Counted from the first letter of the stretch, positions 42,830-57,067 are shown. The stretch: 64,000 nucleotides of DNA from an uncultured Candidatus Berkelbacteria bacterium (GCA_903877885.1 CAIRFN010000006.1:86054-150053); one strand, 5' to 3'. A program made the numbers and translations. Notes: generated from the letters alone by a model not told the origin.

Positions 42830-42863
42830 AAAAAACCGCTTATTGCTAAGCGGTCTGATTTTT
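42830..42863 (-). terminator. rho-independent terminator closing the radical-SAM operon
   Basis: Minus strand CCGCTTAGCAATAAGCGG followed by TTTTTT; overlaps the stop codon of 42846..43466. Confidence 0.55.
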
Positions 42864-43466
42864 ATTGAATGGTAGTTGTTCTAATAGCTGTTCGTGAATT
42901 TTAGTATGCCTCAACCAGATTATTTTTTTAATAATTAATGGTAATTTCTTGGTTTTTAAGAAGAAAAGATTCTGCCATGTTTGGGCTGAAATCATTTCTT
43001 CCAGATGACCTTGGATTAAATCAACTTGGTAGAAATTAGCAAAGCCAAACAAAGTTTCGGTGATTGAGCTAATACTGGCTCTAATCTCTGGTTCTGGTCC
43101 TGGTTCATCTTGATCGGCTAAGCGTCGAATTTTTTCACTTTGTTCGATCAGTGAGAAAAATCGAGTCAACGGGTCAAAACTTTCGGTGGAAACAATATTG
43201 ACAGTTTCCGGAAAATCTAACTCATTAATATAACAAAACCGAATCAAGACAAAGAGGATATCGGAAAGTTCATCGACTAATTTGTGTCGAGATTTTTGTC
43301 CATGGCGATATTTTTCCCAAATTGTCAGCATTCTTCCAAGCGAACCGATCTCTGTGACTAATTCCAAAAAAGTGGTGTCATTGGTCCAGATTCTCGGTTC
43401 AATCTTGTCAAAACCTTTGATCGTTGGGATCGAAGCTTCGATTAGTTGATCGATGTTAATGGTCAT
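42846..43466 (-). CDS. MazG-like all-alpha NTP pyrophosphohydrolase superfamily protein (divergent, tentative)
   Basis: 'W...FLELVTEIGSLGRMLTIWEKY...KLVDELSDILFVLIRFCYINELDF' resembles the MazG 'E.GEL...ELaDvl..l' pattern, but the first EExxE is degenerate. Confidence 0.4.
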   Translation of the reverse strand: MTINIDQLIEASIPTIKGFDKIEPRIWTNDTTFLELVTEIGSLGRMLTIWEKYRHGQKSRHKLVDELSDILFVLIRFCYINELDFPETVNIVSTESFDPLTRFFSLIEQSEKIRRLADQDEPGPEPEIRASISSITETLFGFANFYQVDLIQGHLEEMISAQTWQNLFFLKTKKLPLIIKKIIWLRHTKIHEQLLEQLPFNKNQTA

Positions 43467-44733
43467 TTTTTTCTCCTAACAAATCGACAAAGCAGTAAGG
43501 ATCTTCGCCATTTAGTTTGCCGGTGGCAAAATAGGCGCCGATTGGGCAGGTGCCAAAGCACTTTTTAGTCCAATATTGGCAAGAGAAACATTTTTCCGGT
43601 TTACAGGATTTAAGTTGGCGATAATTCTGCCAGGTTGGTGACTCGTGCCAGATTTTCAGCAGGCTTTCTTCAAGCAAATTACCAGCCACAAACAAGCTTT
43701 TTTCTAAGTCTGTTAGCAACTCCATTTTTTGGACTGGAGCGACTTCACAAGGAAAAACATTGCCTTGTGGTGAAACAAAAGCAAATTCTCGGCCCGCCGG
43801 ACAAGCGTGAATTCTGGGTACAATCGGGTGGGCCGGCAGATTTTCAGTGGACAATAAATCAAAATCCATTACCACTTTAGCTTTAGGATATTTTTTGCGC
43901 CAACCTTCAACCAGTCGATTGAATTCGAGTGTTTCGGCCGCGGTCAACATTTGCTTCTGAACTTCTTCATTGGCACCGCGGCCGAATGGCCTTGGATGAA
44001 TAAAATCGATCAAAAGTAAATCTAATTGCTGACAGAGTGCTAATAGTGGCTCGACTGATTGATAATTAAGACGGGACAAAACCGTGTTGATTCTGACTTT
44101 GGGAATTCCCGCCGCTTTCAAACGGCTGATTGTTGCCACAGTCTGGTCATACGATCCGCCGGGCCGGAAATTGTCATTAATCTTTTTCGGGCCGTCGAGC
44201 GAAATAATCACATCGTCGATTTGGCGTTTGCAAATTTCATGAGTTAATTCATCAGTCCAAACGCCATTACTGGCTAGGCTGGTGTAAAAACCCAATTCAA
44301 TGGCATAGTCCAAAATCTCCAAAAAGTCTGGTCGCATAGTTGGTTCTCCGCCAGTTAAACGCGCTTCGAACACGCCGACGCGATGCATCTCATCCAGAAC
44401 TTTTTTCCAGTCTTCGGTGGTCATTTCGTTTTCCAAGGCTTGACCCGCCCCGTTGTAACACATTTTGCAACGCAGGTTACATTTACGAGTTAAAACCAAG
44501 TAAAGGCGATTTGGTGCCATAATGGTTTGACTGGGATACACTCCTTGAAAAGTCTGGTGAGAGTCGCTGTTTGAATCTCCGGCTTGACAGAAAAAGCAGT
44601 TGTCTTGGTTTAGGAATGTTTCTGCCTCTTCGCTTGAGCAAGTGAAAAATCGGCGACTGACTGCATCAAATACAGTGAAATAGGAACTAATAGCCAGTTC
44701 TTGTCTGGCTCGATATCGTAGTTTACTCATCAT
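43456..44733 (-). CDS. Radical SAM / SPASM-domain enzyme with an ~85-aa N-terminal extension (RRE-like)
   Basis: 'CNLRCKMC' CX3CX2C; C-terminal Cys-rich SPASM ('CPAG...C...CFSCQYWTKKCFGTCP'). Confidence 0.8.
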   Translation of the reverse strand: MMSKLRYRARQELAISSYFTVFDAVSRRFFTCSSEEAETFLNQDNCFFCQAGDSNSDSHQTFQGVYPSQTIMAPNRLYLVLTRKCNLRCKMCYNGAGQALENEMTTEDWKKVLDEMHRVGVFEARLTGGEPTMRPDFLEILDYAIELGFYTSLASNGVWTDELTHEICKRQIDDVIISLDGPKKINDNFRPGGSYDQTVATISRLKAAGIPKVRINTVLSRLNYQSVEPLLALCQQLDLLLIDFIHPRPFGRGANEEVQKQMLTAAETLEFNRLVEGWRKKYPKAKVVMDFDLLSTENLPAHPIVPRIHACPAGREFAFVSPQGNVFPCEVAPVQKMELLTDLEKSLFVAGNLLEESLLKIWHESPTWQNYRQLKSCKPEKCFSCQYWTKKCFGTCPIGAYFATGKLNGEDPYCFVDLLGEKNDH

Positions 44734-45620
44734 ACGCTCACTTTCTCGAGTTGGTCGATAAACCAGGCCTCGAAGTCCAGCGCGGCCGAACTGCCGCTTT
44801 CCACTGCCACGTCCAGTAAATGATCTAAATACTGGTCGTAGGTTGTGGCATTGTATTCTTCCAGAGTTTTACAAAAACTCAAACCGAAAACTTCGGCCGC
44901 GCCAAATTTGAAATTGGCGTTGTTGGGAAAAGATTTAATCCGCGGTAAAACATAGGTGACTCCATTGTAAAACAACGGATTATACGGTCTGTCAATCTGG
45001 CATATAGTGTTAAAAACTTGGTTTTGACCGATTCGATCAATGGTGGAAATTTCCATAATTTGAATCGGAAAATCCAGTCGCCTGATGGTCAAATGCGGAT
45101 TAGTGTAGGCGATTCCAGTTATTTCGTTTTTAATTGCTGGTAAACCGTTTTCCACAAAAATTGATTGAGCGTGAAAATGAGGTTCAAAACTGGCGCCAGA
45201 ATTTTTCATATTGCAAAACACACTTGAACCGCATTGAGTTGAAAATTCTCTCAGAAATCGGAAGTCTTTGACTTTTGGATTCGGTCGATGCTCGTCAGTC
45301 AAAATTAAATAATGACAAATCGCCGAGCAACGGGGATGAAGCAGAAATGTCATATGATCGGATTTCGCGGTTTTAATTAAACCCGAGCCGGTTTCTTCCG
45401 GATCGCAGAGAAAACAGATTTGCTTACCGTTAGCGTCAAATTGTGGTATTGCTTGGGTTAAATACCATTTTTCAATATTTTGCGAATAAATTACGGTCAA
45501 ATATTGTCTTTTTGTCGGATCTTCTGGCCGCAAGATTTTGCGCTTGCAGACATCGTCTTTCATGGTTTGACCATGAACTTGTTCCCAGGTTTCGCGTAGA
45601 ACCGTATTTAAATCTGGCAT
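44730..45620 (-). CDS. GalT-family (HIT superfamily) nucleotidyltransferase/phosphorylase-like protein
   Basis: Zn-site-like 'QICFLCDPEE' and active-site-like 'SFEPHFHAQ' (compare GalT 'CFLC', 'SNPHPHGQ'); RBS GGGGGA before MPDLNTV. Confidence 0.6.
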   Translation of the reverse strand: MPDLNTVLRETWEQVHGQTMKDDVCKRKILRPEDPTKRQYLTVIYSQNIEKWYLTQAIPQFDANGKQICFLCDPEETGSGLIKTAKSDHMTFLLHPRCSAICHYLILTDEHRPNPKVKDFRFLREFSTQCGSSVFCNMKNSGASFEPHFHAQSIFVENGLPAIKNEITGIAYTNPHLTIRRLDFPIQIMEISTIDRIGQNQVFNTICQIDRPYNPLFYNGVTYVLPRIKSFPNNANFKFGAAEVFGLSFCKTLEEYNATTYDQYLDHLLDVAVESGSSAALDFEAWFIDQLEKVSV

Positions 45621-45746
45621 TTTCGTTTCCCCCTGATTGTTAAGGTATCTCATCCTGATTCCAATCTTCAATTTTAATTCAAGATTGGAATAAAAACCGG
45701 AGAACTTTGAAAGTCTCCGGATCTCTAAATTTACTTCAGAGATTGA

Positions 45747-47120
45747 TTAAAGATATTTTTTGTAGCAGTAAGGGTCCTGGCCATAGAGTTTGCTATTTTC
45801 GATTCGGCCACCGTTGGCAATAACCATTGCTCGGCATTTGCCTTCGCATTGCTTCATATAGAATCGACAACCGTGGCAACCGACCTTCTTGGTATTGCGG
45901 AAGTGTTCCATCGATGGGTGAAGCCAGGCTTCTTGAACTGAAGTATCGATTAAGTTCGGTCCTTTAAATTCCGGTTCATCCATCAGGAAACTGCAGGCGT
46001 TGACCGAGCCGTCAGGGCAAAGCCCAAAACCGGTTGAAAGCGCGCCGCAATCCGAATAATTGAATGGGTAAGGCAGCTCGCTTTTATCCGGGTAGTCGGG
46101 TGAGAAGCAATCCATGTTCTTGTGGATAATTTTGATACCCGATTCGCGGATGAACGTCGTTTCTCTTGTTTGTTGAACCGCTCGGCAAAATTCCATATAT
46201 TCCTCGGTGCTCAACATGGTGTCGGGAAGCCCCGTGGTACTGCGACCATATGGCCGCAGAGGCACAAAGTTCAGGTTATAACCATGCTGTGCGGCTAAAC
46301 TGGCGACATAAGGCATTTCTATTGCGTTATCGCGAGCTACGGTCATATTGATAGTGACACCGATGGTTTTCTGGTGACAACGGTTATAGTGATCCAGAAA
46401 ATCGAAAGTCCACATGATTTTGCTAAACGTGCCGAGATTGCGACGTTTGTCATTGGTTTCTTCAGTGCCTTCCAGGGAAATGATGACTTCGTCGACTCCG
46501 GCATCAGTAATATCTTTGGCTACTTGCTCGCTCCAACAGCCGTTGGTATTGAGCATCACGGCCATGCCTAAACTTTTGGCATAAGCAATAGCTTGGGGTA
46601 AGTCGTCGCAAGAAGTCGCTTCGCCGCCGGTAAAACGCCATTCCATGGTGCCAGCGAGATAAAATTTATCCATAATCTGCATTGTTTGTCCTAATGTTCG
46701 CCGGTGACTGTCAGCATTTTTGCTGGCCGCCAAACAACATTGGGGGCAATCCAGATTGCATTGTCGAGTGTAAGTGTCATAGACGCGAAGCGGGGCACTC
46801 AAACAATGTTGGGGGATAATTGGGTTTCGAACTAATCGGGTTTTGCCATTGTAAACACAGTTAACATAATCGTTATCCATGATTTCCAAGGCACCCATAT
46901 CCACAAAGCGCATAATTTCGGCGCGATCATAACCATATTTAATTAAATCTGGTATGTGTACGCCGTATGATCCGCAATGTTTAGTGATATGATCAGCTTG
47001 CAATATTTCCGCTACCATTTTATAGGTTCTGTCATCCAAAACATCGCAGCGGATTTTTTGAGCATCATGTAAGATGCCACCGAAATACTCTTTTCGAAGG
47101 GTAAAGCGCGTAGTTATCAT
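45747..47120 (-). CDS. Radical SAM / SPASM-domain enzyme with N-terminal RRE-like (PqqD-type) extension
   Basis: RBS AGGAGGTG before 'MITTRFTLRKEYFGGIL...'; 'CNLDCPQC' CX3CX2C; C-terminal SPASM cysteines. Confidence 0.8.
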   Translation of the reverse strand: MITTRFTLRKEYFGGILHDAQKIRCDVLDDRTYKMVAEILQADHITKHCGSYGVHIPDLIKYGYDRAEIMRFVDMGALEIMDNDYVNCVYNGKTRLVRNPIIPQHCLSAPLRVYDTYTRQCNLDCPQCCLAASKNADSHRRTLGQTMQIMDKFYLAGTMEWRFTGGEATSCDDLPQAIAYAKSLGMAVMLNTNGCWSEQVAKDITDAGVDEVIISLEGTEETNDKRRNLGTFSKIMWTFDFLDHYNRCHQKTIGVTINMTVARDNAIEMPYVASLAAQHGYNLNFVPLRPYGRSTTGLPDTMLSTEEYMEFCRAVQQTRETTFIRESGIKIIHKNMDCFSPDYPDKSELPYPFNYSDCGALSTGFGLCPDGSVNACSFLMDEPEFKGPNLIDTSVQEAWLHPSMEHFRNTKKVGCHGCRFYMKQCEGKCRAMVIANGGRIENSKLYGQDPYCYKKYL

Positions 47121-47130
47121 GGTCCACCTC

Positions 47131-48117
47131 CTACAGTGTCCAGTTCGGGTCTTTGGCAAAGAGTTTATCAATCAAGACTTGATAGCTGGAAAACCAGCTT
47201 TCTTTAGTCGCCAGGCAAATACCGCAACAAGCTAAGTCGGCATGGCCATCTAAACTTGATTGGCGAATCGCTTGGAATTTGTCGTTTTGCCAAATTCTGG
47301 CAATCGTCTGGTCAGGATCATTTAAATCTCCAACCAGATCGTGATCAGCCCAATCATTGAAACAAGCGTTAACTTGTCCCCAGGGATTGATGGAAAATCT
47401 TGTCCAAAGTTGTGCACAAGGCACAACTTTACTTCTGTCTTGATCGCCAATTGGCGCCAACCGTCCACCATAGGTATGGTAGGGACGAACAATTGTCATA
47501 TCGGCCAGCTTATTCCAGTAATTCAAAAAAGTTTCTTTCTCTTCCTGGAATTCCGGACAATCAACGGCCGAAACAATAATGCGGGTTTGATAACCACCGC
47601 TGTTACGCAACCGAATTAAATTAATGGCATTTTTAACTACCGTTTGAAAATAATTCGTGCCACGAAACTGTTGGTACAATTTTTCGCTAGCCGCATCAAT
47701 GCTTAATTCCAGTAGATCGATGCCAGTATCCAGAAGATTTCTGGCATAGGTGTCGTCCAAAAGGATTACATTGGTAAAACTAGTAACTCTTTTTACACCG
47801 GCTTTTTTGGCATACTTAGCCATATCAATGTAATGCGGGTGCATTAGTGGTTCGCCTCGGCCGTGAAAACGGAGAATTGACCACGGGTATTTTGCAATCT
47901 CGTCAGCGATTTTGGGAAAGAGTTTCCATGGAAAAAATGCCTTTTTCCGGGGATCGAATTCTCCAGTTTTATCTTGTCCCATTTGACCGCGGCGAGACAG
48001 TCCCACCGGGCATTTAAGACAATTGCTGTTGCAAATGTAATGCTCTAAAGCAATTTGAACGACAACAGGAAATTCCTGCTCTTCACTGGTTTGAAAACCA
48101 TAGCTGAAATCTTTCAT
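47131..48117 (-). CDS. Radical SAM enzyme with SPASM/twitch-like C-terminal cysteines, no N-terminal extension
   Basis: 'CNSNCLKC' CX3CX2C at residue ~28; C-terminal 'C...C...CCGIC'; RBS AAAGGAGG. Confidence 0.7.
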   Translation of the reverse strand: MKDFSYGFQTSEEQEFPVVVQIALEHYICNSNCLKCPVGLSRRGQMGQDKTGEFDPRKKAFFPWKLFPKIADEIAKYPWSILRFHGRGEPLMHPHYIDMAKYAKKAGVKRVTSFTNVILLDDTYARNLLDTGIDLLELSIDAASEKLYQQFRGTNYFQTVVKNAINLIRLRNSGGYQTRIIVSAVDCPEFQEEKETFLNYWNKLADMTIVRPYHTYGGRLAPIGDQDRSKVVPCAQLWTRFSINPWGQVNACFNDWADHDLVGDLNDPDQTIARIWQNDKFQAIRQSSLDGHADLACCGICLATKESWFSSYQVLIDKLFAKDPNWTL

Positions 48118-48128
48118 CTCAACCTCCT

Positions 48129-49406
48129 TTAGCGGTTGTCTGGTAACGTTTGGGCCCAGCTTCGTTGGAGTTTTCGCTCCATGGTCTCGATGACCAAATC
48201 ACGCCAAACCTCCACATCCTGTGGTGTAAAATATTCGGTTTGGACAACATAACAAGTGCTCCTGCCTCGACCGACTTGAATATATTTACTGTAATCGCGG
48301 TCAATTGTGGCGCCATATGCCTCGGGATTTTCCCAGACTGCTGTTCCCGGATAGGGAATAAACGGATAAACCACGAATTCATCAAACGGACAATTTTTTA
48401 ATCCTTCAATAGATTCGTAGATAGTTTCTTCTGTTTCACCAGGAAAACCAACCAGAATATAAATTCTAACTTTTAATCCGGCGGCTTTGGCGTTTTGAAT
48501 GGCTTTTAGATTAGTCTCGGCTCGAGTTTGTTTTCCCAAAATAGAAAGCATTTTATTAGACATACTTTCCACACCAATAGCGACATGACGACAACCACTT
48601 TGAGCTAACTGCTCGCAGGCGGTTGAGTTTAAGTTATTGGCTCTGGCAAAAACTCGATAGAGAATATCTAGCGGCGCAATTGCTTTGGTCATTTCGGTAA
48701 TACGATGCGGCGAAAAGGTAAATAAGTCATCACTAAAACGGAAATTGGTTGTGCCGAAATTCGCGTTTAAACTTTGAATTTCAGTGACAACATTTTCCGG
48801 TGAGCGAAATCTTAATTGACCTCGACTAAACACCAGGCTGTTACAAAATTTGCAATTGTATGGACAACCCCGGCTAGAAATCAAACTAATACTTGGTTTT
48901 GTCTCTACAATTCGATTGTAACTAGCTAAATCGGTCAAATCATAATTTGGAAAAGGTAATCGATCTAAATCCTGAAGTGGTTGACCAACTAAAATACCTT
49001 TGGCTAGATAGCCATTGGCTTTGTAATTGGTAATTACTTCAGGAAAAGTTTGATCAGCCTCGCCAGTAATAATTAAATCAAAATCTTTGGCCGATTCGAC
49101 AGCAAGCGCACTAACATGCGGCCCGCCAGCAATAGTTAAAGCTTGCGGGTTAATATTTTGCAATATTAAATTTTTTATTTCCAAAGTTCGCGCGTAAGTT
49201 ACCGAATAAGTCGAGAAAGCATAAATTTTAGCGGCAGGGATTTGTTCGAGCCACTTGGTTGAGTCGAGGCCTGACAGATCGCAGATCTGACAAGAAATGC
49301 CCATTTTTTGAACAAGAGTGGCCAGGTAAAGAATGCCGAGTGGCGCTTCAAGCCGATCGTCATTTAATTCCGGGCACGGTGTGTTGACGAAAACTACGTC
49401 ACGCAT
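48129..49406 (-). CDS. B12-binding-domain radical SAM enzyme (class B)
   Basis: N-terminal Rossmann-like B12-binding region; 'CPYNCKFC' CX3CX2C; RBS GGGGGA. Confidence 0.75.
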   Translation of the reverse strand: MRDVVFVNTPCPELNDDRLEAPLGILYLATLVQKMGISCQICDLSGLDSTKWLEQIPAAKIYAFSTYSVTYARTLEIKNLILQNINPQALTIAGGPHVSALAVESAKDFDLIITGEADQTFPEVITNYKANGYLAKGILVGQPLQDLDRLPFPNYDLTDLASYNRIVETKPSISLISSRGCPYNCKFCNSLVFSRGQLRFRSPENVVTEIQSLNANFGTTNFRFSDDLFTFSPHRITEMTKAIAPLDILYRVFARANNLNSTACEQLAQSGCRHVAIGVESMSNKMLSILGKQTRAETNLKAIQNAKAAGLKVRIYILVGFPGETEETIYESIEGLKNCPFDEFVVYPFIPYPGTAVWENPEAYGATIDRDYSKYIQVGRGRSTCYVVQTEYFTPQDVEVWRDLVIETMERKLQRSWAQTLPDNR

Positions 49407-49460
49407 TTGTTCCCCCTTCGACCCTTAAGCTTTTAAGGTTCATCGAAATTGAACACCTTC

Positions 49461-49488
49461 AGTATAGTCTCTTTTGTCAATCTGTCAA
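49461..49488 (-). promoter_or_regulatory. sigma70-like promoter (TTGACA-16-TATACT) upstream of the B12-rSAM gene
   Basis: Read on the minus strand in the 146-bp gap; -35 hexamer is duplicated (TTGACAgaTTGACA). Confidence 0.45.
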
Positions 49489-49539
49489 GAGGGTAAAGTT
49501 AAAAATTAAAAGTGTTTATTGTGAAATCGACGGATATTA

Positions 49540-49570
49540 AAAAAAGCGGTGTTTAGCCGCTTTTGGTATT
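49540..49570 (-). terminator. terminator-like hairpin overlapping the stop of the RNB gene
   Basis: Minus strand AAAGCGG-CTAAACA-CCGCTTT followed by TTTT. Confidence 0.45.
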
Positions 49571-50716
49571 GTCGATTTTTTGGTTAATGAGATTGCATAT
49601 ACCAGTTGCCGCTGATTTTCTTGCTAAGTTTTGTTGAGCTAAGCGTCTGGTTTTATACTGAAGTTTTTCTCCCATGAAAAGCATTTGACACTCACCGATA
49701 AAGAATCTGTCTTCAGGTTTGACGTGAATCTTGGGAATGGGGACTTGATGAGCTCTGCACCATTTTGATAGAGTTTCGATGGTATCAGTCTCAATGACTA
49801 TTCTTTTATACTCGCGAAGGTCATCTTCTGGTTTGTTTAAAACTTTTGTATTAAGTCTTTGCAAAAGTTCCGATAAATTTTCTTCATTGTAATAATTGTT
49901 CTGGTTCGTTAAGGTTGAAATTAATATTCTTTGATTTACTAAATCGCTAAAACGTCTAATTGGTGATGTAGCCCTAAGATAATAGTCGATTTTCATGTCT
50001 TCGTGTTTTTCTGGAGTAATTGAATAATTAGCAATAGACAAAACCTCGGTTTTCTTATGAACACGATAAAGTGCTGGTATACCAAGGTTTTTTAAATATT
50101 GAGCTACTAAGAGATTAAAAAGAATACTAAATTCAGTTATGATTATATGACCTTCTGTCTCGATTGAGTCACAAGCGAGACGCTTGCCGTCATCGTCGAA
50201 AATTATTCCTTCGCAAACATCTTCTCTAGAGATTTTTCTTTCAGGGAATCTTTTTCTCATAAGCTCCAGTGCCAGGTCAAAAGCTTGATTTATCATGGGA
50301 AAAATTTCGTCATGATTATTTCGTAACAACCAATGTATATCGGAGTAAAAAAGCTTTTTGATACTTCTAAAAATGGACTGGACAAATCGGGGTGTTCCAA
50401 GCAAATTGTAATCTTTGTCGAAAGAAATAACCATGGTTAGCGCTTGTCTGGTTTGACTTGGTAGAAAACTCGCTGTGCATTCAGCAATATTTTTTGGAAG
50501 CATATGCTTAATGGCAGTGCCATTTAAACGATAAACAGACTCTATTTGCTCATAAGCATTTATATCAAGTTCTGATCCTATTGGTATAATTGACGCGACT
50601 TCCGAAACAGAAATATTCAGTTTAAATATATCGTCTGTTCTTGTGAGCCAAAAACCGTCGTCTAAATCCATTGATGACGGTCGATCAATCGTAACTCCTG
50701 TCAAATTACATCTCAT
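49553..50716 (-). CDS. RNB-domain (RNase II/R catalytic domain) exoribonuclease without CSD/S1 domains
   Basis: Motif I 'TIDRPSSMDLDDGFWL' (D..D.DD) and 'YYLRATSPIRRFSDLVNQR' (compare 'HFTSPIRRY.DL..HR'); RBS AAGGAGGTG before ATG at 50716. Confidence 0.65.
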   Translation of the reverse strand: MRCNLTGVTIDRPSSMDLDDGFWLTRTDDIFKLNISVSEVASIIPIGSELDINAYEQIESVYRLNGTAIKHMLPKNIAECTASFLPSQTRQALTMVISFDKDYNLLGTPRFVQSIFRSIKKLFYSDIHWLLRNNHDEIFPMINQAFDLALELMRKRFPERKISREDVCEGIIFDDDGKRLACDSIETEGHIIITEFSILFNLLVAQYLKNLGIPALYRVHKKTEVLSIANYSITPEKHEDMKIDYYLRATSPIRRFSDLVNQRILISTLTNQNNYYNEENLSELLQRLNTKVLNKPEDDLREYKRIVIETDTIETLSKWCRAHQVPIPKIHVKPEDRFFIGECQMLFMGEKLQYKTRRLAQQNLARKSAATGICNLINQKIDNTKSG

Positions 50717-50754
50717 GGTAACCACCTCCTTGAGTTTGTTAATGTTCTTTGACC

Positions 50755-50783
50755 ACTATACCTTAAAAGAGAAGTTATGTCAA
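50755..50783 (-). promoter_or_regulatory. near-consensus sigma70-like promoter (TTGACA-17-TATAGT) driving the RNB gene and the operon
   Basis: Minus-strand TTGACAtaacttctcttttaaggTATAGT about 35 nt upstream of the RBS. Confidence 0.5.
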
Positions 50784-51036
50784 TGAAAAATAGGGGACGA
50801 AATTGGGGACGGTTCTGCCTGCCTGCCGGCAGGCAGGTTTTGACCTGAAGATTAGGCTTTTTGGGATTTTTTAAAATATTAAAAATAAATACAAAAAAAT
50901 CCACCAAATGATTTTTGTAAATCATCTCGCGGATTTCTGATTTTTGGTAGACTTAATGCACTTTCCTTCGAACACCTTTTGAAATGGCTCGATCAAATTA
51001 TGAGAGCATGTCTACTACCCAAGGATCAGGATAAAT

Positions 51037-51252
51037 TTATATCTTGATCTCTTTTATTTTTAAAACTTCCTTAACTTCTCGTACCTTTTCAACTGACGGA
51101 TTAACCTCGTCTCGCTCCATCTGGGCATAGTAGTTAGTGCTGATATCGGCTTTCTCGGCTACCTCCAATTGGGTCAGGTGAAGTTTTTCCCTGGCTGCCT
51201 TGAACTGTTCGCCGATTGTTTGATTCGATTTTGTAGAATTATCAGTACCCAT
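51037..51252 (-). CDS. XRE-family helix-turn-helix transcriptional regulator (71 aa)
   Basis: 'LTQLEVAEKADISTNYYAQMERDE' HTH_3 pattern. Confidence 0.7.
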   Translation of the reverse strand: MGTDNSTKSNQTIGEQFKAAREKLHLTQLEVAEKADISTNYYAQMERDEVNPSVEKVREVKEVLKIKEIKI

Positions 51253-51306
51253 ACCGTTATTTTAGCAGATTTTACGCCTTATGACCAGTGGTCTGAAACT
51301 TTAAGA

Positions 51307-51525
51307 CTATTTGTCCGCCTGATCGCTCTGTGGGCCGCCGGATTCCAAGACATCAAGAAGTCGTTTCAACCATTCTTCTTTACCAATTTCGTCAATCATC
51401 TTGGCGTTAGCCTTGACCCAAGTTTCCTTTGAAACCATAGTCTCATGCTCCAAGCAAAGCGCCGGCAAAATATTGATAGCGTAAAACGGGTTGGCAAACA
51501 TTTCTTCAAGTTCTTTTTCATTCAT
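51307..51525 (-). CDS. hypothetical small protein upstream of the HTH gene
   Basis: 72-aa ORF co-oriented with the HTH gene, 54 nt gap. Confidence 0.35.
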   Translation of the reverse strand: MNEKELEEMFANPFYAINILPALCLEHETMVSKETWVKANAKMIDEIGKEEWLKRLLDVLESGGPQSDQADK

Positions 51526-51600
51526 ATTATTCCTTTCATATTACAAGGCGAGTATAACACAAAGTCTCGATCAATATCAAAATAAATTAAGGAGGTCACA

Positions 51601-52326
51601 ATGTTACGACAATCACCGGCATATAGACAACATTTAACAAATATCCAAAATGAAGTCGATGCCAAAAAATTAAAACAAATGCAAAAAGGCAATCTTTTTA
51701 ACGAGAAGAGCTTTTATCAAGCATTTGTTAAAGATATGTTGGCTGCCAAAAAAGAAGTAGTGATTTACAGTCCGTTTGTATCGAAGTTCCGATCGGAGTT
51801 CTTTAGACGAACTCTTATCGAGCTTCGAAAGAGAAATATACCTGTTTTTATCTTTACCAGACCGCTTGAAGAGCATGATTATTTTATGAAAGCCGAAATT
51901 TCCTGCGCCTTAAAGGATTATGAAGAATCCGGCGCCTATATCACCTATCTACCAGGGTTTGTTCACGAAAAATTAGCTATCATTGATCGCGAAATTCTTT
52001 GGGAAGGGAGTTTAAATATTCTTTCGCAAAGGCAAAGCCGAGAAATGATGAGACGAATCTCGGATGAGATATTGGTGCAAGAAACGATGTCTTATCTGGG
52101 GCTGAACAAAAAACTGGCTGAAGCTTATAAATTTCAGTATGAACGGCTGTATCGCAATACGGCCAAGAATCTTGAAGAGAATAAACTGGCTAAGATCAAA
52201 TTGTTCTTTTCGGGAGTAATTGTTCCGTTTCTTGCCTGGTGGCTATTTGCCGTCGCTAAAGTATTAATAGTATCACTGAAAGGAGCAAAACTTGTTTTTG
52301 GTTTGATAAATTTTCTTTACAAATAA
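51601..52326 (+). CDS. Phospholipase D-like (HKD) domain protein with C-terminal TM
   Basis: Single HKD 'HEKLAIIDREILWEGSLN'; C-terminal hydrophobic helix. Confidence 0.55.
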   Translation: MLRQSPAYRQHLTNIQNEVDAKKLKQMQKGNLFNEKSFYQAFVKDMLAAKKEVVIYSPFVSKFRSEFFRRTLIELRKRNIPVFIFTRPLEEHDYFMKAEISCALKDYEESGAYITYLPGFVHEKLAIIDREILWEGSLNILSQRQSREMMRRISDEILVQETMSYLGLNKKLAEAYKFQYERLYRNTAKNLEENKLAKIKLFFSGVIVPFLAWWLFAVAKVLIVSLKGAKLVFGLINFLYK

Positions 52327-52386
52327 AAGTGTGATTTTGTCATACTAAGCTTTCTGTGAAATATGGACTTTTTGAATTAATAATTT

Positions 52387-52623
52387 ATGACTTTCTGGTA
52401 TAATCAAGATATGGATATTAATGAATTTAAAACTGTTGCCGGATGGTACAAAAAAATGAAAGCAGATGGCTATACAGTGCCGCTGGCTCTTTATTTTACA
52501 TTGGAGCGAATGGTCAAGGAAAAGAAGATGACTTTTCAACAAGCTTTTAACGAGTTGCAAACCAAAAATCGAATTCAAATAAATAACAAAAATATAAGTT
52601 TTTCCCTAAACGAGATTAAATAA
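52387..52623 (+). CDS. hypothetical small protein
   Basis: ORF only. Confidence 0.3.
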   Translation: MTFWYNQDMDINEFKTVAGWYKKMKADGYTVPLALYFTLERMVKEKKMTFQQAFNELQTKNRIQINNKNISFSLNEIK

Positions 52624-52627
52624 AAAA

Positions 52628-53227
52628 ATGACACAACAAATTTTAATGATTCACGGCGGAAATGCGTTTAAAACCCATGAAGAATACATCAGCTATTTAC
52701 AGAACAAAGAATTTACCTTGAAGGAATTGAAATTCAAAGATTGGAAAGCAAATTTGGCGGAAGATTTGGGTAGTGGCCATGAAGTTTTTACACCTCGAAT
52801 GCCTAACTCTCAAAATGCGCGATACGCAGAATGGAAAATTTGGTTTGAAAAAGTTCTCTCGCTTTTGGATGACAATCTAATTTTAATCGGTCACTCATTG
52901 GGCGGAATTTGTATTGCAAAATATCTTTCGGAAAACACATCTGCCAAAAAAATTAAAGCAACTTTTTTAGTGGCCGCGCCTTTCAACACGGCCGGCAAAC
53001 ATCCATTAGTGGATTTTATTATTTCTAATGATATTTCAGGATTGGCCGATCAGGTCGGCCAAATTTTTCTTTACCACAGTGAGGACGATAAAGTTGTGCC
53101 ATACTCAAACTTCAAAGATTATACGAAAGCCTTACCAATGGCAGAGGGCAAGATATTTATTGATGCCGGTCATTTCCATCAAACTCATTTCCCGCAATTA
53201 GTCGAGGATATCAAATCATTAAATTAA
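52628..53227 (+). CDS. Alpha/beta hydrolase, YdeN/RBBP9-like serine hydrolase
   Basis: 'MIHGGNAF' start, nucleophile elbow 'GHSLGG', 'DDKVVPY' and His near C-terminus. Confidence 0.6.
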   Translation: MTQQILMIHGGNAFKTHEEYISYLQNKEFTLKELKFKDWKANLAEDLGSGHEVFTPRMPNSQNARYAEWKIWFEKVLSLLDDNLILIGHSLGGICIAKYLSENTSAKKIKATFLVAAPFNTAGKHPLVDFIISNDISGLADQVGQIFLYHSEDDKVVPYSNFKDYTKALPMAEGKIFIDAGHFHQTHFPQLVEDIKSLN

Positions 53228-53229
53228 AA

Positions 53230-53700
53230 GTGATCGAGGAAAATATGAAAATATACCTTCGAGAAATTGAACTGCAAGACTTTGAAATATTTGAAAAATA
53301 TACTGACGATGAAGAGCTACACAAATACAATTCTTTTGACATTTACAAAAAAGCCAAAGAAGTTGGGTTTGAGAACTTTCTAAAAGACAAGGACGAAACA
53401 CGTTATGCAATCTGCTTGAAAGATACTGGAGAAATAATTGGTGATATCGGGGAAAGAATTGTGCTTGATTCTTCTGATATTAAATTTGGTCTGACAATCT
53501 TTAGGAAAGATCTCTGGGACAAAGGCTTTGGATACCAAGCAGTGATGCAATTACTCGAAAAATTAAAGGTAAGGGGTGTCGAAACAGTTGTTTTAGATGT
53601 GGACAAGCGCAACAAACGCGCTCTGCGCTTATATGAGAAAATTGGATTTACTACTTATGAGGAAAGTGACAAGAAGTATCATATGTCAAAGAAACTATAG
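53230..53700 (+). CDS. GNAT family N-acetyltransferase
   Basis: 'RNKRALRLYEKIGF' motif A/B region. Confidence 0.6.
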   Translation: MIEENMKIYLREIELQDFEIFEKYTDDEELHKYNSFDIYKKAKEVGFENFLKDKDETRYAICLKDTGEIIGDIGERIVLDSSDIKFGLTIFRKDLWDKGFGYQAVMQLLEKLKVRGVETVVLDVDKRNKRALRLYEKIGFTTYEESDKKYHMSKKL

Positions 53701-53760
53701 TTTGGTCAACTCATTCGCTCTCATTTATTCGGCTCATTTCTTCAACCGGAACCAAAAATT

Positions 53761-54282
53761 TTATGGTTCTCTGTATTCTACTGGTATTTCTAATCCAAAT
53801 TTCTTACAAAGAGCTATAATATCTTCCGCATCATGTTTAGCTATTTCATGGTCTAACCTAAATTTGATCGCATATTCAAGAGAAACGCATTTTACTTCTT
53901 GACCGTTAATTTTGCCAATGCCCCCGAATGAATCAGCTGGGTTCATCTCGTTATTTTCGGCAGGACCAAAAATACCATCGCCTTTTTCGTCAAAGTGAAT
54001 AGCGGTGATATCAATTTCATGACCTTTGCCGTCGGACATATGAAAATAGTTATCGGCTAAATCATCGCGTTGCAAAATCTTGTAATTTTGATCGCCAAGT
54101 AACTCTTTAATTTGTGTGACATCTTTTTCTTGGATAATAATATCTAGATCGCCATGCGGTCGAGTCAGCTCGCCGATCAAAGCGTCAATTCCCCAACCGC
54201 CATCTATCCAGGCGTCGATCTTATTGTCGTTTAATTGGGAATAGATATCCACGACATCTTTTGCCGTCATTTCTTGTTGCAT
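53761..54282 (-). CDS. Pol-beta-fold nucleotidyltransferase of the ANT(2'')/Lnu (aminoglycoside/lincosamide nucleotidyltransferase) family
   Basis: 'AWIDGGWGIDALIGELTRPHGDLDIII' closely matches the ANT(2'')-Ia/Lnu signature 'WI.GGWAIDA..G..TR.H.DID'. Confidence 0.6.
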   Translation of the reverse strand: MQQEMTAKDVVDIYSQLNDNKIDAWIDGGWGIDALIGELTRPHGDLDIIIQEKDVTQIKELLGDQNYKILQRDDLADNYFHMSDGKGHEIDITAIHFDEKGDGIFGPAENNEMNPADSFGGIGKINGQEVKCVSLEYAIKFRLDHEIAKHDAEDIIALCKKFGLEIPVEYREP

Positions 54283-54300
54283 AATTTTGATTCCTTTTGG

Positions 54301-54810
54301 CTATGAAATAGCGTATTCAATAACTTTGACTGGAATACCTTTTTCTCTCGCTTTATTGATCGTGTCTTGCACGCCGTCACTTCCGTTTACATGGAAAGCC
54401 AGGAGTTCATCGGCCGCATTGACGACTTGCATATTTCTTTCAAAGTAGGTAGTTTTATCGACGATCTTGTTGATTTTGTTCTCGATTATAGATTCTGGAT
54501 TTATTTCTTTTAGCCTTGATAACTGCGCAATTAATTCTTCTGCTTGGTCATGAGTAATTACACCTTCATCTGCTCTTTTTCGATAATGTGCCGCGTAAAT
54601 GTCCAGTGTGGTCGGTAGAAATATTTTAATCTGCTTGAAATCTTTGTTTAATTTCATCGCTTCGTCGGTGGCAAAATAATCAACATTAAGAGCACCGCCG
54701 GAAACAATACCATCGCCGTCTTTAATAATATCGGCGACTTCCTTGCGGACATCACTTTCAACTTTTTCGCTGGTTAGACGCCAACTACCACTAATTGCGA
54801 TCCATTTCAT
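54301..54810 (-). CDS. DUF2493 / SLOG-superfamily (DprA-like Rossmann) protein
   Basis: 'IVSGGALNVDYFATDEA' and 'ERNMQVV...LLAFHVNGSDGVQDTINKAREKGIPVKVIEY' match the DUF2493 pattern. Confidence 0.5.
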   Translation of the reverse strand: MKWIAISGSWRLTSEKVESDVRKEVADIIKDGDGIVSGGALNVDYFATDEAMKLNKDFKQIKIFLPTTLDIYAAHYRKRADEGVITHDQAEELIAQLSRLKEINPESIIENKINKIVDKTTYFERNMQVVNAADELLAFHVNGSDGVQDTINKAREKGIPVKVIEYAIS

Positions 54811-56550: not shown

Positions 56551-56730
56551 TAATTTTAGCGAGTACGGGATTTACGGACAGCTCGGAAACCCACGGTTTT
56601 CCGACGTCCGGCATAAATGTCGGACTGCCTTCCTCTAGCGGTAAACCTCTGGTTTCCCGACCCCTTCCTGGTCCGAATCCCAAATCTACATTAAAGCAAA
56701 AAATTCACCGAAATGGTGAATCCTTTGCTT

Positions 56731-56804
56731 TAGCGCGTGCGGGATTCGAACCCGCGATCTACAGAATGAAAATCTGTTATCCTAGGCCTCTAGACGAACG
56801 CGCC
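56731..56804 (-). tRNA. tRNA-Glu(TTC)
   Basis: Minus strand: acceptor GGCGCGT, classic Glu D-arm 'TTCGTCTAGAGGCCTAGGA', anticodon loop TTTTCAT, T-loop GGGTTCGAATCCC. Followed by a hairpin plus T-run terminator (56700-56730). Confidence 0.85.
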
Positions 56805-56808
56805 ACAT

Positions 56809-57066
56809 CTATATTGTTAAGCTATCTCCGATATTTTCCTTTAAAAAATCTCTTTGCCCACCTTTTTTCTTAAGATTGATTTCTCTTCGACGAGCATCTT
56901 TCTCGGATAGATACGCCTCGTAATAAATCAATTTGTAAGGTTTATGCTTATTTGTGTAATTTACTTTTCCTAAGTTGTGTTCGATTAATCGTCTTTTAAT
57001 GTCATTACTATAACCAGTATAAGTGGTGTTGTCTCCAATACTTTTAATCAAATAGACGTAATACAT
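56809..57066 (-). CDS. GIY-YIG nuclease family small protein (UPF0213/YhbQ-like)
   Basis: 'YYVYLIKS...TYTGYSNDIKRRLIEHN' GIY...YIG motif; 85 aa. Confidence 0.8.
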   Translation of the reverse strand: MYYVYLIKSIGDNTTYTGYSNDIKRRLIEHNLGKVNYTNKHKPYKLIYYEAYLSEKDARRREINLKKKGGQRDFLKENIGDSLTI

Positions 57067-57067
57067 T

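What the first reader, a model, noticed from the sequence alone, without database searches (positions are those of the whole stretch)
42846..50783. Operon with four radical SAM enzymes plus GalT-like, MazG-like and RNB-only nuclease genes, no recognisable precursor peptide
Seven co-directional genes on the minus strand are tightly packed. They are: an RNB catalytic-domain exoribonuclease, a B12-binding class-B radical SAM, a SPASM/twitch radical SAM, a radical SAM/SPASM with an N-terminal PqqD/RRE-like extension, a GalT-family HIT nucleotidyltransferase, a second radical SAM/SPASM with an N-terminal extension, and a MazG-like protein. Every radical SAM gene carries an intact CX3CX2C. Two near-consensus sigma70 promoters are present (TTGACA-17-TATAGT at 50755-50783 and TTGACA-16-TATACT at 49461-49488). 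Each gene has a strong RBS, and a terminator overlaps the last stop codon. RRE-plus-SPASM enzymes normally mature a ribosomal peptide, yet no small precursor ORF lies in or beside the operon. The three nucleotide-handling enzymes (GalT-like, MazG-like, RNB) are not standard RiPP accessories. The mix fits either a RiPP pathway whose precursor is encoded elsewhere, or an undescribed nucleotide/nucleoside-derivative pathway. The latter could be an antimetabolite or a defence-type modified nucleotide, by analogy with B12-rSAM plus phosphohydrolase logic in oxetanocin or viperin-like chemistry. I do not recognise this gene combination as a described system.
Basis: partly seen in the sequence, partly recalled or inferred. 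Interest (0 to 1): 0.88.

Follow-up and report, generated by a model that had tools for sequence, protein, structure and literature searches.

The report
Rare four-radical-SAM nucleotide-enzyme cassette
A self-contained six-gene cassette (four radical SAM enzymes, an Ap4A-phosphorylase/GalT-like nucleotidyl transferase and a dUTPase/MazG-like pyrophosphatase) is conserved in a few dozen uncultured bacteria and archaea, matches no described pathway, and its product is unknown; the neighbouring RNB nuclease gene is not part of it.

Summary
The unit is six genes, not seven. The RNB gene has its own promoter and terminator, has lower GC, and is absent from every related locus.

The six genes are a B12-type rSAM, a rSAM with a partial SPASM, two rSAMs with full SPASM, a HIT protein and an NTP-pyrophosphatase-like protein. 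They recur in the same order in at least 10 independent metagenomic lineages, including CPR bacteria and at least one archaeon. The flanks are unrelated. The rSAMs are 50–69% identical across these loci.

- No rSAM reaches any curated family cut-off.
- The HIT protein has an Apa2 (Ap4A phosphorylase) fold with invariant HxHxQ. Its family has only 37 relatives among 1.84 billion representative proteins.
- In a variant cassette the HIT protein is fused to the last rSAM.
- No precursor peptide is conserved within or beside any cassette.

My best reading (about 0.4) is an anaerobic pathway that tailors a nucleotide-linked small molecule. The main rival is a peptide or protein maturase with a substrate encoded elsewhere, supported by weak RRE-like N-termini. 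I found no literature or database description.

The parts
49461..49488 (-). Cassette promoter, TTGACA-16-TATACT, 55 nt upstream of the g2 start codon.
   Evidence: 11 of 12 positions. TTGACA-type promoters sit upstream of the B12-rSAM gene in L005, L010, L011 and L014 as well (sequences).
48129..49406 (-). g2: class-B-type radical SAM, 425 aa, with an N-terminal B12-binding domain. CX3CX2C is at C181/C185/C188.
   Evidence: Pfam B12-binding 8e-11 and Radical_SAM 6e-23. No NCBIfam cut-off is reached; the best hits are ApyD, PhpK and HpnJ at about 120 bits. The nearest solved structure is AprD4. Identity across loci is 55-61%. The Cys triad is invariant.
47131..48117 (-). g3: radical SAM, 328 aa, with no N-terminal extension. 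It has a C-terminal five-Cys partial SPASM/twitch domain.
   Evidence: C29/33/36 and C234/252/297/298/301 are invariant. Identity across loci is 60-64%. The family census is 62 clusters. The nearest solved structures to the family profile are BtrN, MoaA, Tes, BlsE and DesII.
45747..47120 (-). g4: radical SAM with a full seven-Cys SPASM domain, 457 aa, and a ~105-aa N-terminal FxLRxEyFGG domain (RRE-like?).
   Evidence: The N-terminus matches the SuiB RRE region at E 0.11 and MftB at E 0.006 in 2 of 8 members. Two subtypes occur among the loci.
45692..45743 (-). Two adjacent hairpins followed by a U-run, directly after the g4 stop codon. This is an internal terminator- or attenuator-like element.
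   Evidence: -21.1 kcal/mol, z -3.66. Stable hairpins lie at the same position in L010, L011, L014 and L006 (z -2.7 to -5.8).
44730..45620 (-). g5: two-domain HIT-superfamily protein of the GalT branch, Apa2/Ap4A-phosphorylase-like, 296 aa. It carries CxxC and H148-x-H150-x-Q152.
   Evidence: Pfam DUF4922 at 23.6 bits, equal to the cut-off. The family profile hits Apa2 (4i5t) at 9e-8. The AF2 model has pLDDT 92.7. Foldseek places Apa2 first at E 2.7e-11, TM 0.62, followed by DUF4931 and GalT. Invariant residues are listed. There are 37 relatives among 1.84 billion representatives.
43456..44733 (-). g6: radical SAM with a full SPASM domain (eight invariant Cys), 425 aa, and a ~70-aa N-terminal extension. 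Its start overlaps the g5 stop codon (ATGA).
   Evidence: (PqqE 1e-28). Identity across loci is 51-69%. Its N-terminus is homologous to the g4 N-terminus (hhalign 95.9%). It is fused to the HIT domain in L029/L030.
42846..43466 (-). g7: all-alpha NTP-pyrophosphatase-like protein, 206 aa, of the dimeric dUTPase/MazG superfamily. Its start overlaps the g6 3' end by 11 nt.
42833..42856 (-). Intrinsic terminator overlapping the g7 stop codon.
   Evidence: 10-bp stem followed by TTTTATT.
49542..50783 (-). Neighbouring unit, judged NOT part of the cassette. It comprises a promoter (50783-50755), an RNB-only exoribonuclease gene (49553-50716, 387 aa) and its own terminator (49564-49542).
   Evidence: GC is 35.7%. 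It is absent from every related locus.

Best explanation
Genes g2-g7 form a self-contained, horizontally mobile six-gene cassette. I think it encodes an anaerobic radical-SAM pathway that tailors a nucleotide-linked small molecule made from a universal metabolite (an NTP, or an NDP-X compound such as an NDP-sugar).

Shown:
- Four rSAMs have intact SAM-cluster motifs. Two have full SPASM domains (two auxiliary clusters each), one has a partial SPASM/twitch domain, and one has a B12-binding domain.
- A GalT-branch HIT enzyme keeps the nucleophile motif HxHxQ.
- A dimeric-dUTPase/MazG-fold protein is present.
- Gene order is conserved across bacteria and archaea, with unrelated flanks.
- A natural HIT::rSAM fusion exists.
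- No precursor peptide is found.

Inferred mechanism:
1. The HIT enzyme forms a covalent NMP-His150 intermediate. It moves a nucleotidyl group onto or off a phosphorylated acceptor, so it creates or exchanges a nucleotide 'handle'.
2. It passes this substrate directly to the g6 rSAM, to which it is translationally coupled here and physically fused elsewhere.
3. g3, g4 and g6 carry out 5'-deoxyadenosyl-radical H-abstraction chemistry (oxidation, C-C or C-X bond formation, or epimerisation).
4. g2 carries out a cobalamin-type methylation or rearrangement.
5. g7 cleaves a phosphoanhydride bond. This would supply an NMP substrate, release the product from its handle, or destroy a toxic NTP analogue.

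The hairpin after g4 sets different expression levels for the g2-g4 and g5-g7 modules. The RNB gene is an unrelated neighbour.
For: - Domain architecture comes, and invariant Cys motifs.
- g5 has an Apa2/GalT-branch fold, invariant H148/H150, near-invariant Q152 and a CxxC motif.
- g7 has a dUTPase/MazG fold, and its N-terminal half is homologous to short YpjD-type MazG proteins.
- The same gene order occurs in L005, L006/7, L008/9/18, L010, L011, L014, L020 and L031, and partly in L012 and L013.
- The flanks differ from locus to locus: dnaA/dnaN; archaeal FEN1; Hdr-like genes; asd with a two-component system; metK. A dedicated substrate gene would therefore have to travel inside the cassette, and none does.
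- In L029/L030 a HIT domain that keeps HYHAQ and CPLC is fused to the g6-type rSAM/SPASM ([hhalign 99.3%], 89).
- Even the most distant HIT relatives sit next to g4- or g6-type rSAM genes.
- The nearest solved relatives of the g3 family are all small-molecule, nucleotide or NDP-sugar rSAMs: BtrN, MoaA, BlsE and DesII. The nearest relative of g2 is AprD4.
- SAM-cycle genes adjoin the cassette in two loci.
- The variant cassette lacks g7 but carries an MBL-fold phosphodiesterase-like protein instead.
- Cassette GC is 42.9% against 38.1% for the window, which fits acquisition by transfer.
Against: - No substrate or product is identified; the chemistry is inferred from superfamily membership only.
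- g4 and g6 carry N-terminal domains with weak similarity to the peptide-binding RRE domains of SuiB and MftB. Their closest characterised relatives (PqqE, MftC, SkfB, SuiB, CteB) all modify peptides.
- HIT is missing in L008/L009/L018. HIT and g7 are both missing or degraded in L031. The nucleotide enzymes are therefore accessory to a four-rSAM core.
- In g7 the second Glu of the canonical MazG ExxE...ExxD metal tetrad is an invariant Ser, so hydrolytic activity is not assured.
- The PDB similarities of g2 and g3 are weak (E 1e-8 to 1e-3) and limited by which rSAMs have been solved.
Confidence: 0.4

Rival explanations
1. The cassette is a peptide or protein maturation system (RiPP-like, or a protein-derived cofactor as in PQQ, mycofactocin or QhpD). 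The substrate would be encoded elsewhere, or would be a universal or cassette-encoded protein. g4 and g6 would bind it through RRE-like N-terminal domains and install cross-links. g2 would C-methylate it. The HIT enzyme would add or remove a nucleotidyl group on the peptide, as in peptide-nucleotide compounds. g7 would process the nucleotide moiety.
For: - The best family matches of g4 and g6 are peptide-modifying rSAM/SPASM enzymes: MftC at 170 bits, PqqE at 144 bits, and SkfB, SuiB and CteB in the PDB.
- The g4 N-terminus aligns along its whole length with the SuiB RRE region, including the FRLEKFGGIL motif (E 0.11). It hits MftB in 2 of 8 members (E 0.006).
- The g4 and g6 N-termini are homologous to each other.
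- The best NCBIfam match of g2 is a RiPP methyltransferase-type rSAM, ApyD.
- The L029 fusion keeps the N-terminal domain between the HIT and rSAM parts.
Against: - No conserved short ORF lies in any gap or flank of 8+ independent loci.
- The flanks are unrelated, and the cassette crosses the bacteria/archaea divide, so a remote dedicated precursor would be lost on transfer.
- All family scores are far below the equivalog cut-offs.
- Pfam PqqD is not detected, even at E 10, on the isolated N-termini.
- The RRE similarity is statistically marginal, and no structure prediction of these domains was possible.
Confidence: 0.27
2. The four-rSAM core makes or remodels a non-nucleotide metabolite or cofactor, for example a tetrapyrrole, a lipid or a redox cofactor used by anaerobes. 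HIT and g7 would be dispensable helpers, for substrate activation or nucleotide house-cleaning.
For: - The four-rSAM core persists without HIT (L008/9/18) and without HIT and g7 (L031).
- g4 and g6 also hit AhbC, AhbD and NirJ. g2 hits BchE, HpnJ, BzaD and the ladderane-type B12-rSAM. g3, g4 and g6 hit the tetraether synthase Tes.
- Fer4/CCG (Hdr/Lut-like) genes lie directly downstream in two lineages.
Against: - All of these hits are weak and non-discriminating, at 20-135 bits against cut-offs of 400-650 bits.
- Several hosts are CPR bacteria (Kuenenbacteria; Minisyncoccia). From general knowledge these have minimal genomes and usually lack tetrapyrrole and de novo lipid pathways.
- The HIT family is found essentially only next to these rSAMs and is fused to one of them. 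This argues that it is integral, not a helper.
Confidence: 0.15
3. The cassette is an anti-phage or antagonistic system that makes a toxic modified nucleotide (a viperin-like chain terminator or antimetabolite). g7 would act as self-protection, and the RNB nuclease as an associated effector.
For: - g3, g4 and g6 give weak pVip hits in PADLOC (up to 80 bits) and hit viperin structures weakly.
- The cassette is rare, patchy and compositionally distinct.
- In the window it lies next to accessory genes: an XRE HTH regulator, a PLD-nuclease-like protein and an ANT(2'')-like protein.
- The variant locus lies beside ParB-like genes.
Against: - The NCBIfam viperin model scores 27-45 bits against a cut-off of 180.
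- PADLOC detects no known defence system.
- In other loci the cassette sits among housekeeping genes: dnaA/dnaN, asd, metK and ribosomal protein genes.
- RNB is not conserved with it.
- It is absent from IMG/VR viral contigs.
- Known pVips act as single rSAM enzymes and have no SPASM domain (general knowledge).
Confidence: 0.1

Closest known systems
PqqE / MftC / SuiB / CteB-type radical SAM-SPASM peptide maturases
   Same: g4 and g6 have a rSAM core plus a full 7-8-Cys SPASM domain. Their best HMM and PDB matches are to these enzymes. Their N-terminal extensions resemble the SuiB RRE and MftB weakly.
   Different: All scores are far below the equivalog cut-offs. No precursor peptide gene is present, and there is no separate PqqD/MftB chaperone. 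The partners (HIT, NTP-PPase-like protein, B12-rSAM, a fourth rSAM) are not those of the PQQ, mycofactocin, sactipeptide or ranthipeptide systems.
Yeast Apa2 Ap4A phosphorylase / GalT / ADP-glucose and GDP-hexose phosphorylases (HIT superfamily, GalT branch)
   Same: g5 has the two-domain fold (Foldseek E 2.7e-11 to Apa2). It carries the N...SGAS...HxHxQ motif and a GalT-like CxxC.
   Different: Sequence identity is 12-14%. Pfam GalP_UDP_transf and ATP_transf are not detected in the window protein. The context has no gal genes and is instead bound to rSAM genes. One relative is fused to a rSAM/SPASM enzyme.
Dimeric dUTPases and MazG/YpjD/DCTPP1 all-alpha NTP pyrophosphohydrolases
   Different: There is no Pfam MazG or dUTPase_2 hit. 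The second Glu of the ExxE motif is an invariant Ser. g7 has a conserved basic/aromatic C-terminal helix. The family is seen only as the last gene of this cassette.
Nucleotide-handle logic of fosfomycin biosynthesis (Fom1 cytidylyltransferase, Fom3 B12-rSAM acting on HEP-CMP, FomD CMP-releasing hydrolase) and oxetanocin OxsB/OxsA. Recalled from general knowledge, not tested here.
   Same: In these pathways a B12-type rSAM works on a nucleotide or nucleotidylated substrate, alongside a nucleotidyl transferase and/or a phosphohydrolase. This is the logic proposed for g2, g5 and g7.
   Different: The enzymes are not homologous: there is no HD domain, no DUF402 and no Fom1-type transferase. This cassette has three additional SPASM-type rSAMs. 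g2 scores only 118 bits against the PhpK-family model, whose cut-off is 600.
Carbohydrate or nucleoside-tailoring rSAMs AprD4, BtrN, BlsE, DesII and MoaA
   Same: These are the nearest solved structures for g2 (AprD4, 1e-16) and for the g3 family profile (BtrN 1e-8, MoaA 1.5e-6, BlsE, DesII).
   Different: The similarities are local and weak. None of those pathways has this gene set.

Membership tests
RiPP / peptide-cofactor rSAM-SPASM maturase systems (PQQ, mycofactocin, sacti-/ranthipeptides) | A radical SAM core with CX3CX2C plus a SPASM domain carrying auxiliary Fe-S cysteines. | tested here: met
   g4 has 7 and g6 has 8 invariant C-terminal Cys.
RiPP / peptide-cofactor rSAM-SPASM maturase systems (PQQ, mycofactocin, sacti-/ranthipeptides) | A precursor peptide gene encoded in or beside the cluster. 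| tested here: not met
   No conserved ORF of 8-110 aa lies in the gaps or flanks of 8+ loci.
RiPP / peptide-cofactor rSAM-SPASM maturase systems (PQQ, mycofactocin, sacti-/ranthipeptides) | An RRE/PqqD-type leader-binding domain, either fused or as a separate protein. | tested here: inconclusive
   The SuiB RRE region matches at E 0.11 and MftB at E 0.006 in 2 of 8 members. Pfam PqqD is not detected.
RiPP / peptide-cofactor rSAM-SPASM maturase systems (PQQ, mycofactocin, sacti-/ranthipeptides) | A score above the curated equivalog cut-off of a named maturase family. | tested here: not met
   The best scores are MftC at 170 against 265 and PqqE at 144 against 381.
Class B (cobalamin-dependent) radical SAM enzymes | An N-terminal B12-binding (Rossmann-like) domain followed by a rSAM core. 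| tested here: met
   PF02310 scores 42.3 bits (cut-off 32.1) and PF04055 scores 82 bits.
Class B (cobalamin-dependent) radical SAM enzymes | Actual cobalamin binding and use. | not testable with these tools
   The nearest solved relative is AprD4. AprD4 is reported not to use cobalamin (general knowledge).
HIT superfamily, GalT branch (GalT, Apa1/2, NDP-hexose phosphorylases) | The active-site motif H-x-H-x-Q, with the second His as the nucleotidyl acceptor. | tested here: met
   H148 and H150 are invariant and Q152 is at least 90% conserved in 20 family members. The motif is also kept in the L029 fusion.
HIT superfamily, GalT branch (GalT, Apa1/2, NDP-hexose phosphorylases) | A two-domain (duplicated HIT-like) fold. 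| tested here: met
   The AF2 model has pLDDT 92.7. Foldseek matches Apa2 at E 2.7e-11, TM 0.62, and matches GalT at E of about 1e-3.
HIT superfamily, GalT branch (GalT, Apa1/2, NDP-hexose phosphorylases) | A Pfam GalT (PF01087/PF02744) or ATP_transf (PF09830) match above the cut-off. | tested here: not met
   Only DUF4922 is found, at 23.6 bits, equal to the cut-off. ATP_transf is 'faint' in one homologue.
MazG / all-alpha NTP pyrophosphohydrolase superfamily (including dimeric dUTPases) | An all-alpha fold of the dimeric dUTPase/MazG type. | tested here: met
MazG / all-alpha NTP pyrophosphohydrolase superfamily (including dimeric dUTPases) | The metal-binding tetrad ExxE...ExxD. | tested here: inconclusive
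   When aligned to 5ie9 and YpjD, the tetrad corresponds to E39, S42, E66 and D69. The second Glu is an invariant Ser. Additional invariant acidic residues E35 and D65 are present.
MazG / all-alpha NTP pyrophosphohydrolase superfamily (including dimeric dUTPases) | A Pfam MazG (PF03819) match. | tested here: not met
   No Pfam family matches at E <= 0.01.
Prokaryotic viperins (pVip) | A score above the NCBIfam viperin_w_prok cut-off, in a single-rSAM architecture without SPASM. | tested here: not met
   Scores are 27-45 bits against a cut-off of 180. PADLOC pVip hits are partial only.
Known anti-phage defence systems (PADLOC-DB v2) | A match of the gene set to a catalogued system. | tested here: not met
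   There are only weak single-gene hits, to PDC-M51A and pVip. g1, g5 and g7 have no hits.
RNase II/R family (for the RNB gene) | An RNB catalytic domain flanked by CSD and S1 RNA-binding domains. | tested here: not met
   The RNB domain is present (4e-46). However, the matches cover only the central RNB part of the RNase R and RNase II models, at 130 bits against a cut-off of 598. It is an RNB-only protein.

The most novel reading that the evidence does not exclude
The cassette makes a previously unknown class of radical-SAM-tailored nucleotide (or nucleotide-peptide) metabolite. A GalT-branch HIT enzyme would act as a dedicated partner of a SPASM radical SAM enzyme, and in some lineages as a fused domain of it. 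It would deliver a nucleotidylated substrate to the rSAM. No such enzyme partnership has been described. The pathway is shared by transfer between CPR bacteria and archaea.
Probability: 0.3. Interest if true: 0.85.

Novelty: new variant of a known kind. Interest (0 to 1): 0.68.

Why it matters
Radical SAM enzymes are the largest enzyme superfamily with mostly unknown functions. Here four of them are locked into one conserved module with two nucleotide-handling enzymes. The module is kept at 50-69% identity between ultra-small CPR bacteria and archaea, which can afford few genes.

If the product is a modified nucleotide or a nucleotide-linked metabolite, this would add a new biosynthetic logic: a HIT nucleotidyl transferase coupled or fused to a SPASM rSAM. 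It could also yield a new antimetabolite or cofactor. The cassette is small (6.6 kb), self-contained and defined by comparison across lineages, so it can be tested directly by heterologous expression.

Tried and rejected
- **RNB as part of the system.** Rejected: it has its own promoter and terminator and lower GC, and it is absent from all other loci.
- **Precursor peptide in the cassette gaps or flanks.** I enumerated all ORFs of at least 8 aa in the gaps, and ran all-against-all BLASTP on 1,239 flank ORFs of 15-110 aa. Nothing was conserved except a pentapeptide-repeat gene shared by two close relatives. A first unmasked scan only found shadow frames inside the big genes.
- **Riboswitch or other RNA element (SAM, cobalamin).** Rfam gave nothing, even at E 1.
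- **Viral origin.** There are no relatives of g5 or g7 in IMG/VR.
- **Known defence system.** PADLOC was negative.
- **Housekeeping assignment (MoaA, QueE, anSME, AhbD/NirJ).** All scores are far below the cut-offs.
- **Literature.** Nine full-text searches were run. They combined 'radical SAM' with DUF4922, Ap4A phosphorylase, MazG, histidine triad, B12, SPASM, Saccharibacteria and similar terms. Eight returned no papers, and the 'radical SAM' + MazG search returned 11 with no relevant title or abstract among those listed.
- **hhalign of the g4 N-terminus against a PqqD sequence typed from memory.** It gave no signal and is uninformative.
- **Source names.** The exact-sequence look-up gave no names for any window protein, so the host taxon of the window is not established.
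- **Distant g7-like hits (L015-L017, L021-L026).** These are ordinary short MazG-type proteins in unrelated contexts.

Full report
**1. What is in the sequence**

The minus strand between 42846 and 50725 carries seven co-directional ORFs. Pfam gives these assignments:

| Gene | Coordinates | Pfam result |
|---|---|---|
| g1 | 49553-50725 | RNB, 4e-46 |
| g2 | 48129-49406 | B12-binding + Radical_SAM |
| g3 | 47131-48117 | Radical_SAM + SPASM |
| g4 | 45747-47171 | Radical_SAM + weak SPASM |
| g5 | 44730-45671 | DUF4922 (HIT clan), exactly at cut-off |
| g6 | 43456-44733 | Radical_SAM + SPASM |
| g7 | 42846-43466 | none |

- Gene calls on public contigs of the same organism, and the positions of the Shine-Dalgarno sequences, favour shorter starts. 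These are 47120 for g4 (457 aa), 45620 for g5 (296 aa) and 50716 for g1 (387 aa).
A terminator overlaps the g7 stop codon.
- The CX3CX2C motif is present in all four rSAMs and invariant among homologues.
- g4 has 7 further invariant C-terminal cysteines and g6 has 8, so both have full SPASM domains. g3 has 5, a partial SPASM or twitch domain.

**2. The unit is six genes, not seven**

- The scan that confirms the promoters also finds an intrinsic terminator at 49564-49542, overlapping the RNB stop codon. The second promoter follows it.
- RNB has 35.7% GC. The cassette has 42.9% and the window 38.1%.
- RNB is absent from every related locus (see section 3).
- RNB is a real RNB-only nuclease gene, but it is a neighbour.
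- Inside the cassette, two adjacent hairpins and a U-run follow the g4 stop codon (45743-45692; -21.1 kcal/mol, z -3.66).
- Stable hairpins occupy the same position in L010, L011, L014 and L006, although their sequences differ. This suggests a g2-g4 module and a g5-g7 module with graded expression.
- The g5 stop overlaps the g6 start (ATGA), and g6 and g7 overlap by 11 nt.
- Rfam finds no riboswitch.

**3. Comparative genomics**

*Rarity of the accessory proteins*
- g5 has no word-sharing relative among 5.8 billion proteins except itself.
- A full HMMER scan of 1.84 billion representatives finds only 37 relatives of g5, about 13 of them full length.
- g7 has nine relatives at 36-46% identity.

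*Conserved gene order*
- Looking up those contigs, and scanning genome and metagenome collections, shows the same order: B12-rSAM, rSAM, rSAM, HIT, rSAM, g7.
- This order occurs in L005, L006/7, L010, L011, L014 and L020, and partly in L012 and L013.
- Identities to the window proteins are 55-61% (g2), 60-64% (g3), 51-69% (g6), 25-31% (g5) and 35-42% (g7).
- g4 occurs as two subtypes, at about 55% and about 35% identity. L006 carries both.

*Unrelated flanks*
- The flanks include dnaA/dnaN with a CPR-typical DUF5671 gene (L005); an archaeal FEN1/XPG (L020); and Hdr-like Fer4/CCG genes (L006, L008/9).
- They also include asd with a two-component system, in a MAG labelled Gammaproteobacteria (L014); a Kuenenbacteria MAG (L013); and metK (L031).
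- One g3 homologue is named as coming from a Minisyncoccia MAG.

*Variant architectures*
- HIT is absent in L008/L009/L018.
- In L031, HIT is reduced to a 46-aa N-terminal remnant and g7 is absent.
- In L029/L030 a 719-aa protein fuses a complete HIT domain to a g6-type rSAM/SPASM. hhalign gives 99.3%, E 1.7e-20, and HYHAQ and CPLC are retained. It follows B12-rSAM and g3 homologues.
- Even the most distant HIT relatives I could locate sit beside g4- or g6-type rSAM C-termini.

*Census*
- The g3 family has 62 clusters at 90% identity, of which about 45 lie at 56-67% identity to the window protein.
- No relatives are found in IMG/VR.

**4. What the accessory proteins are**

*g5*
- A profile of 20 family members hits yeast Apa2 (Ap4A phosphorylase) at 9e-8.
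- The AlphaFold model (pLDDT 92.7) matches Apa2 best (Foldseek E 2.7e-11, TM 0.62). DUF4931 and the GalT and ADP-glucose phosphorylases follow.
- Invariant or near-invariant residues include N137, G142-A143, H148, H150, Q152 and an upstream CxxC. This is the GalT-branch HIT signature, in which the second His carries the nucleotidyl group (general knowledge).

*g7*
- The family profile hits the MazG-type proteins 5ie9 and YpjD and the DCTPP1 proteins weakly.
- Short stand-alone MazG-like proteins (113-118 aa) align to its N-terminal half.
- In the alignment to the canonical ExxE...ExxD tetrad, g7 has E39, S42, E66 and D69. The serine is invariant, and E35 and D65 are additional invariant acidic residues. 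It very likely binds nucleotide. Hydrolysis is plausible but not assured.

**5. What the rSAMs resemble**

- None reaches a curated NCBIfam cut-off.
- g6 and g4 are nearest to MftC, PqqE, AhbC/D and NirJ. Among solved structures they are nearest to PqqE, SkfB, SuiB, CteB and BlsE.
- g2 is nearest to AprD4.
- The g3 family profile is nearest to BtrN, MoaA, Tes, BlsE and DesII, all of which are small-molecule enzymes.
- The N-terminal extensions of g4 and g6 are homologous to each other (hhalign 95.9%).
- The g4 extension aligns end to end with the SuiB RRE region, but only at E 0.11. It hits the MftB model in 2 of 8 members (E 0.006).
- Pfam PqqD is not detected.

**6. Precursor search**

I enumerated all ORFs of at least 8 aa in the cassette gaps of seven loci. 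I also compared 1,239 flank ORFs (15-110 aa) from twelve loci all-against-all. Nothing is conserved apart from a pentapeptide-repeat gene shared by two close relatives.

**7. Interpretation**

- The cassette is rare, compositionally distinct and found with unrelated flanks in both bacteria and archaea. Whatever it needs must therefore be inside it or universal in cells.
- It carries no peptide gene, but it does carry two nucleotide-handling enzymes. One of these belongs to a family seen essentially only beside these rSAMs, and in one lineage it is fused to a rSAM.
- I therefore favour (0.4) a pathway that tailors a nucleotide-linked small molecule. The HIT enzyme would install or exchange a nucleotidyl handle and feed g6. 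The SPASM rSAMs and the B12-type rSAM would do the radical chemistry. g7 would cleave a phosphoanhydride bond.
- This logic recalls fosfomycin (Fom1/Fom3/FomD) and oxetanocin (OxsB/OxsA). That comparison comes from general knowledge, and the enzymes are not homologous.
- The main rival (0.27) is a peptide or protein maturase whose substrate lies elsewhere. It rests on the RRE-like N-termini and on the peptide-modifying nearest relatives of g4 and g6.
- The four-rSAM core persists without HIT and g7 in some loci. This keeps open a non-nucleotide metabolite or cofactor pathway (0.15).
- A defence or antimetabolite role (0.1) is possible, but no catalogue match supports it.

**8. Novelty**

- NCBIfam, PADLOC, Pfam and nine full-text literature searches give no description of this gene set.
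- The library lacks most subscription-journal papers, so an existing description cannot be excluded.
- I rate it a new variant of a known kind (a radical-SAM biosynthetic or maturation operon), with a 0.3 chance that it represents new chemistry.

**9. Limits**

- The host taxon of the window is not established. All of its proteins are unnamed singletons.
- Substrate, product and cobalamin use are not known.
- The RRE question is unresolved.
- Most related contigs are short metagenomic fragments.

Noticed in passing
window 45692-45743 (-); L010 5132-5161; L011 4644-4675; L014 7642-7680; L006 4398-4424: A stable terminator-like hairpin directly follows the g4 stop codon in five independent cassettes. 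Its position is conserved but its sequence is not. This suggests regulated or partial termination between the g2-g4 and g5-g7 modules.
   Followed up: partly
L029 7547-9706 (also L030 2879-5038): A 719-aa natural fusion joins the HIT-like domain (HYHAQ and CPLC kept) to a g6-type rSAM/SPASM. It lies in a variant cassette beside ParB-like genes, an 838-aa MBL-fold protein and two further rSAM genes. No g7 homologue is present.
   Followed up: partly
L031 12516-12656: A 46-aa ORF equals only the N-terminal helix and first strand of the HIT-like protein. It sits between g4 and g6 in a cassette that also lacks g7. It may be a deletion remnant, or possibly a retained small peptide.
   Followed up: no
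window 50800-54810: An accessory-looking stretch lies upstream of RNB. It holds an XRE HTH gene (51037-51252), a 72-aa ORF (51307-51525), and a PLD-like protein with a hydrophobic C-terminus (51601-52326; PADLOC MkoC-like, 4e-11). It also holds an alpha/beta hydrolase, a GNAT, an ANT(2'')-like nucleotidyltransferase and a DprA-like fragment.
   Followed up: partly
window 49553-50716 (-): The RNB protein lacks the CSD and S1 domains of RNase II/R. It keeps the DxDD and TSPIRR motifs. It forms its own promoter-to-terminator unit just downstream of the XRE HTH gene.
   Followed up: partly
L031 7430-8479; L012 3437-5638: SAM-cycle genes adjoin the cassette in two loci. metK lies immediately upstream in L031. 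PfkB kinase and S-adenosylhomocysteine hydrolase lie downstream in L012. A divergent PurA-like gene lies two genes downstream in L031 (16123-17505).
   Followed up: no
L006 10073-11499; L008 4871-6824; L009 6327-8280: Fer4 and CCG-domain (Hdr/Lut-like) genes lie directly downstream of the cassette in two lineages. They could be electron donors for the rSAMs, or their position could be coincidence.
   Followed up: no
L005 6457-7791; L006 1594-2961 and 3017-4396; L009 2889-4226: g4 exists as two subtypes, at about 55% and about 35% identity to the window protein. L006 carries both in tandem. The HIT-less cassettes have only the divergent subtype.
   Followed up: partly
window 22679-31276 and 56730-61279: The 64-kb window holds eleven tRNA genes, mostly in two clusters. 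All housekeeping proteins I checked are unnamed singletons at 90% identity, so the host is an otherwise unsampled lineage.
   Followed up: no
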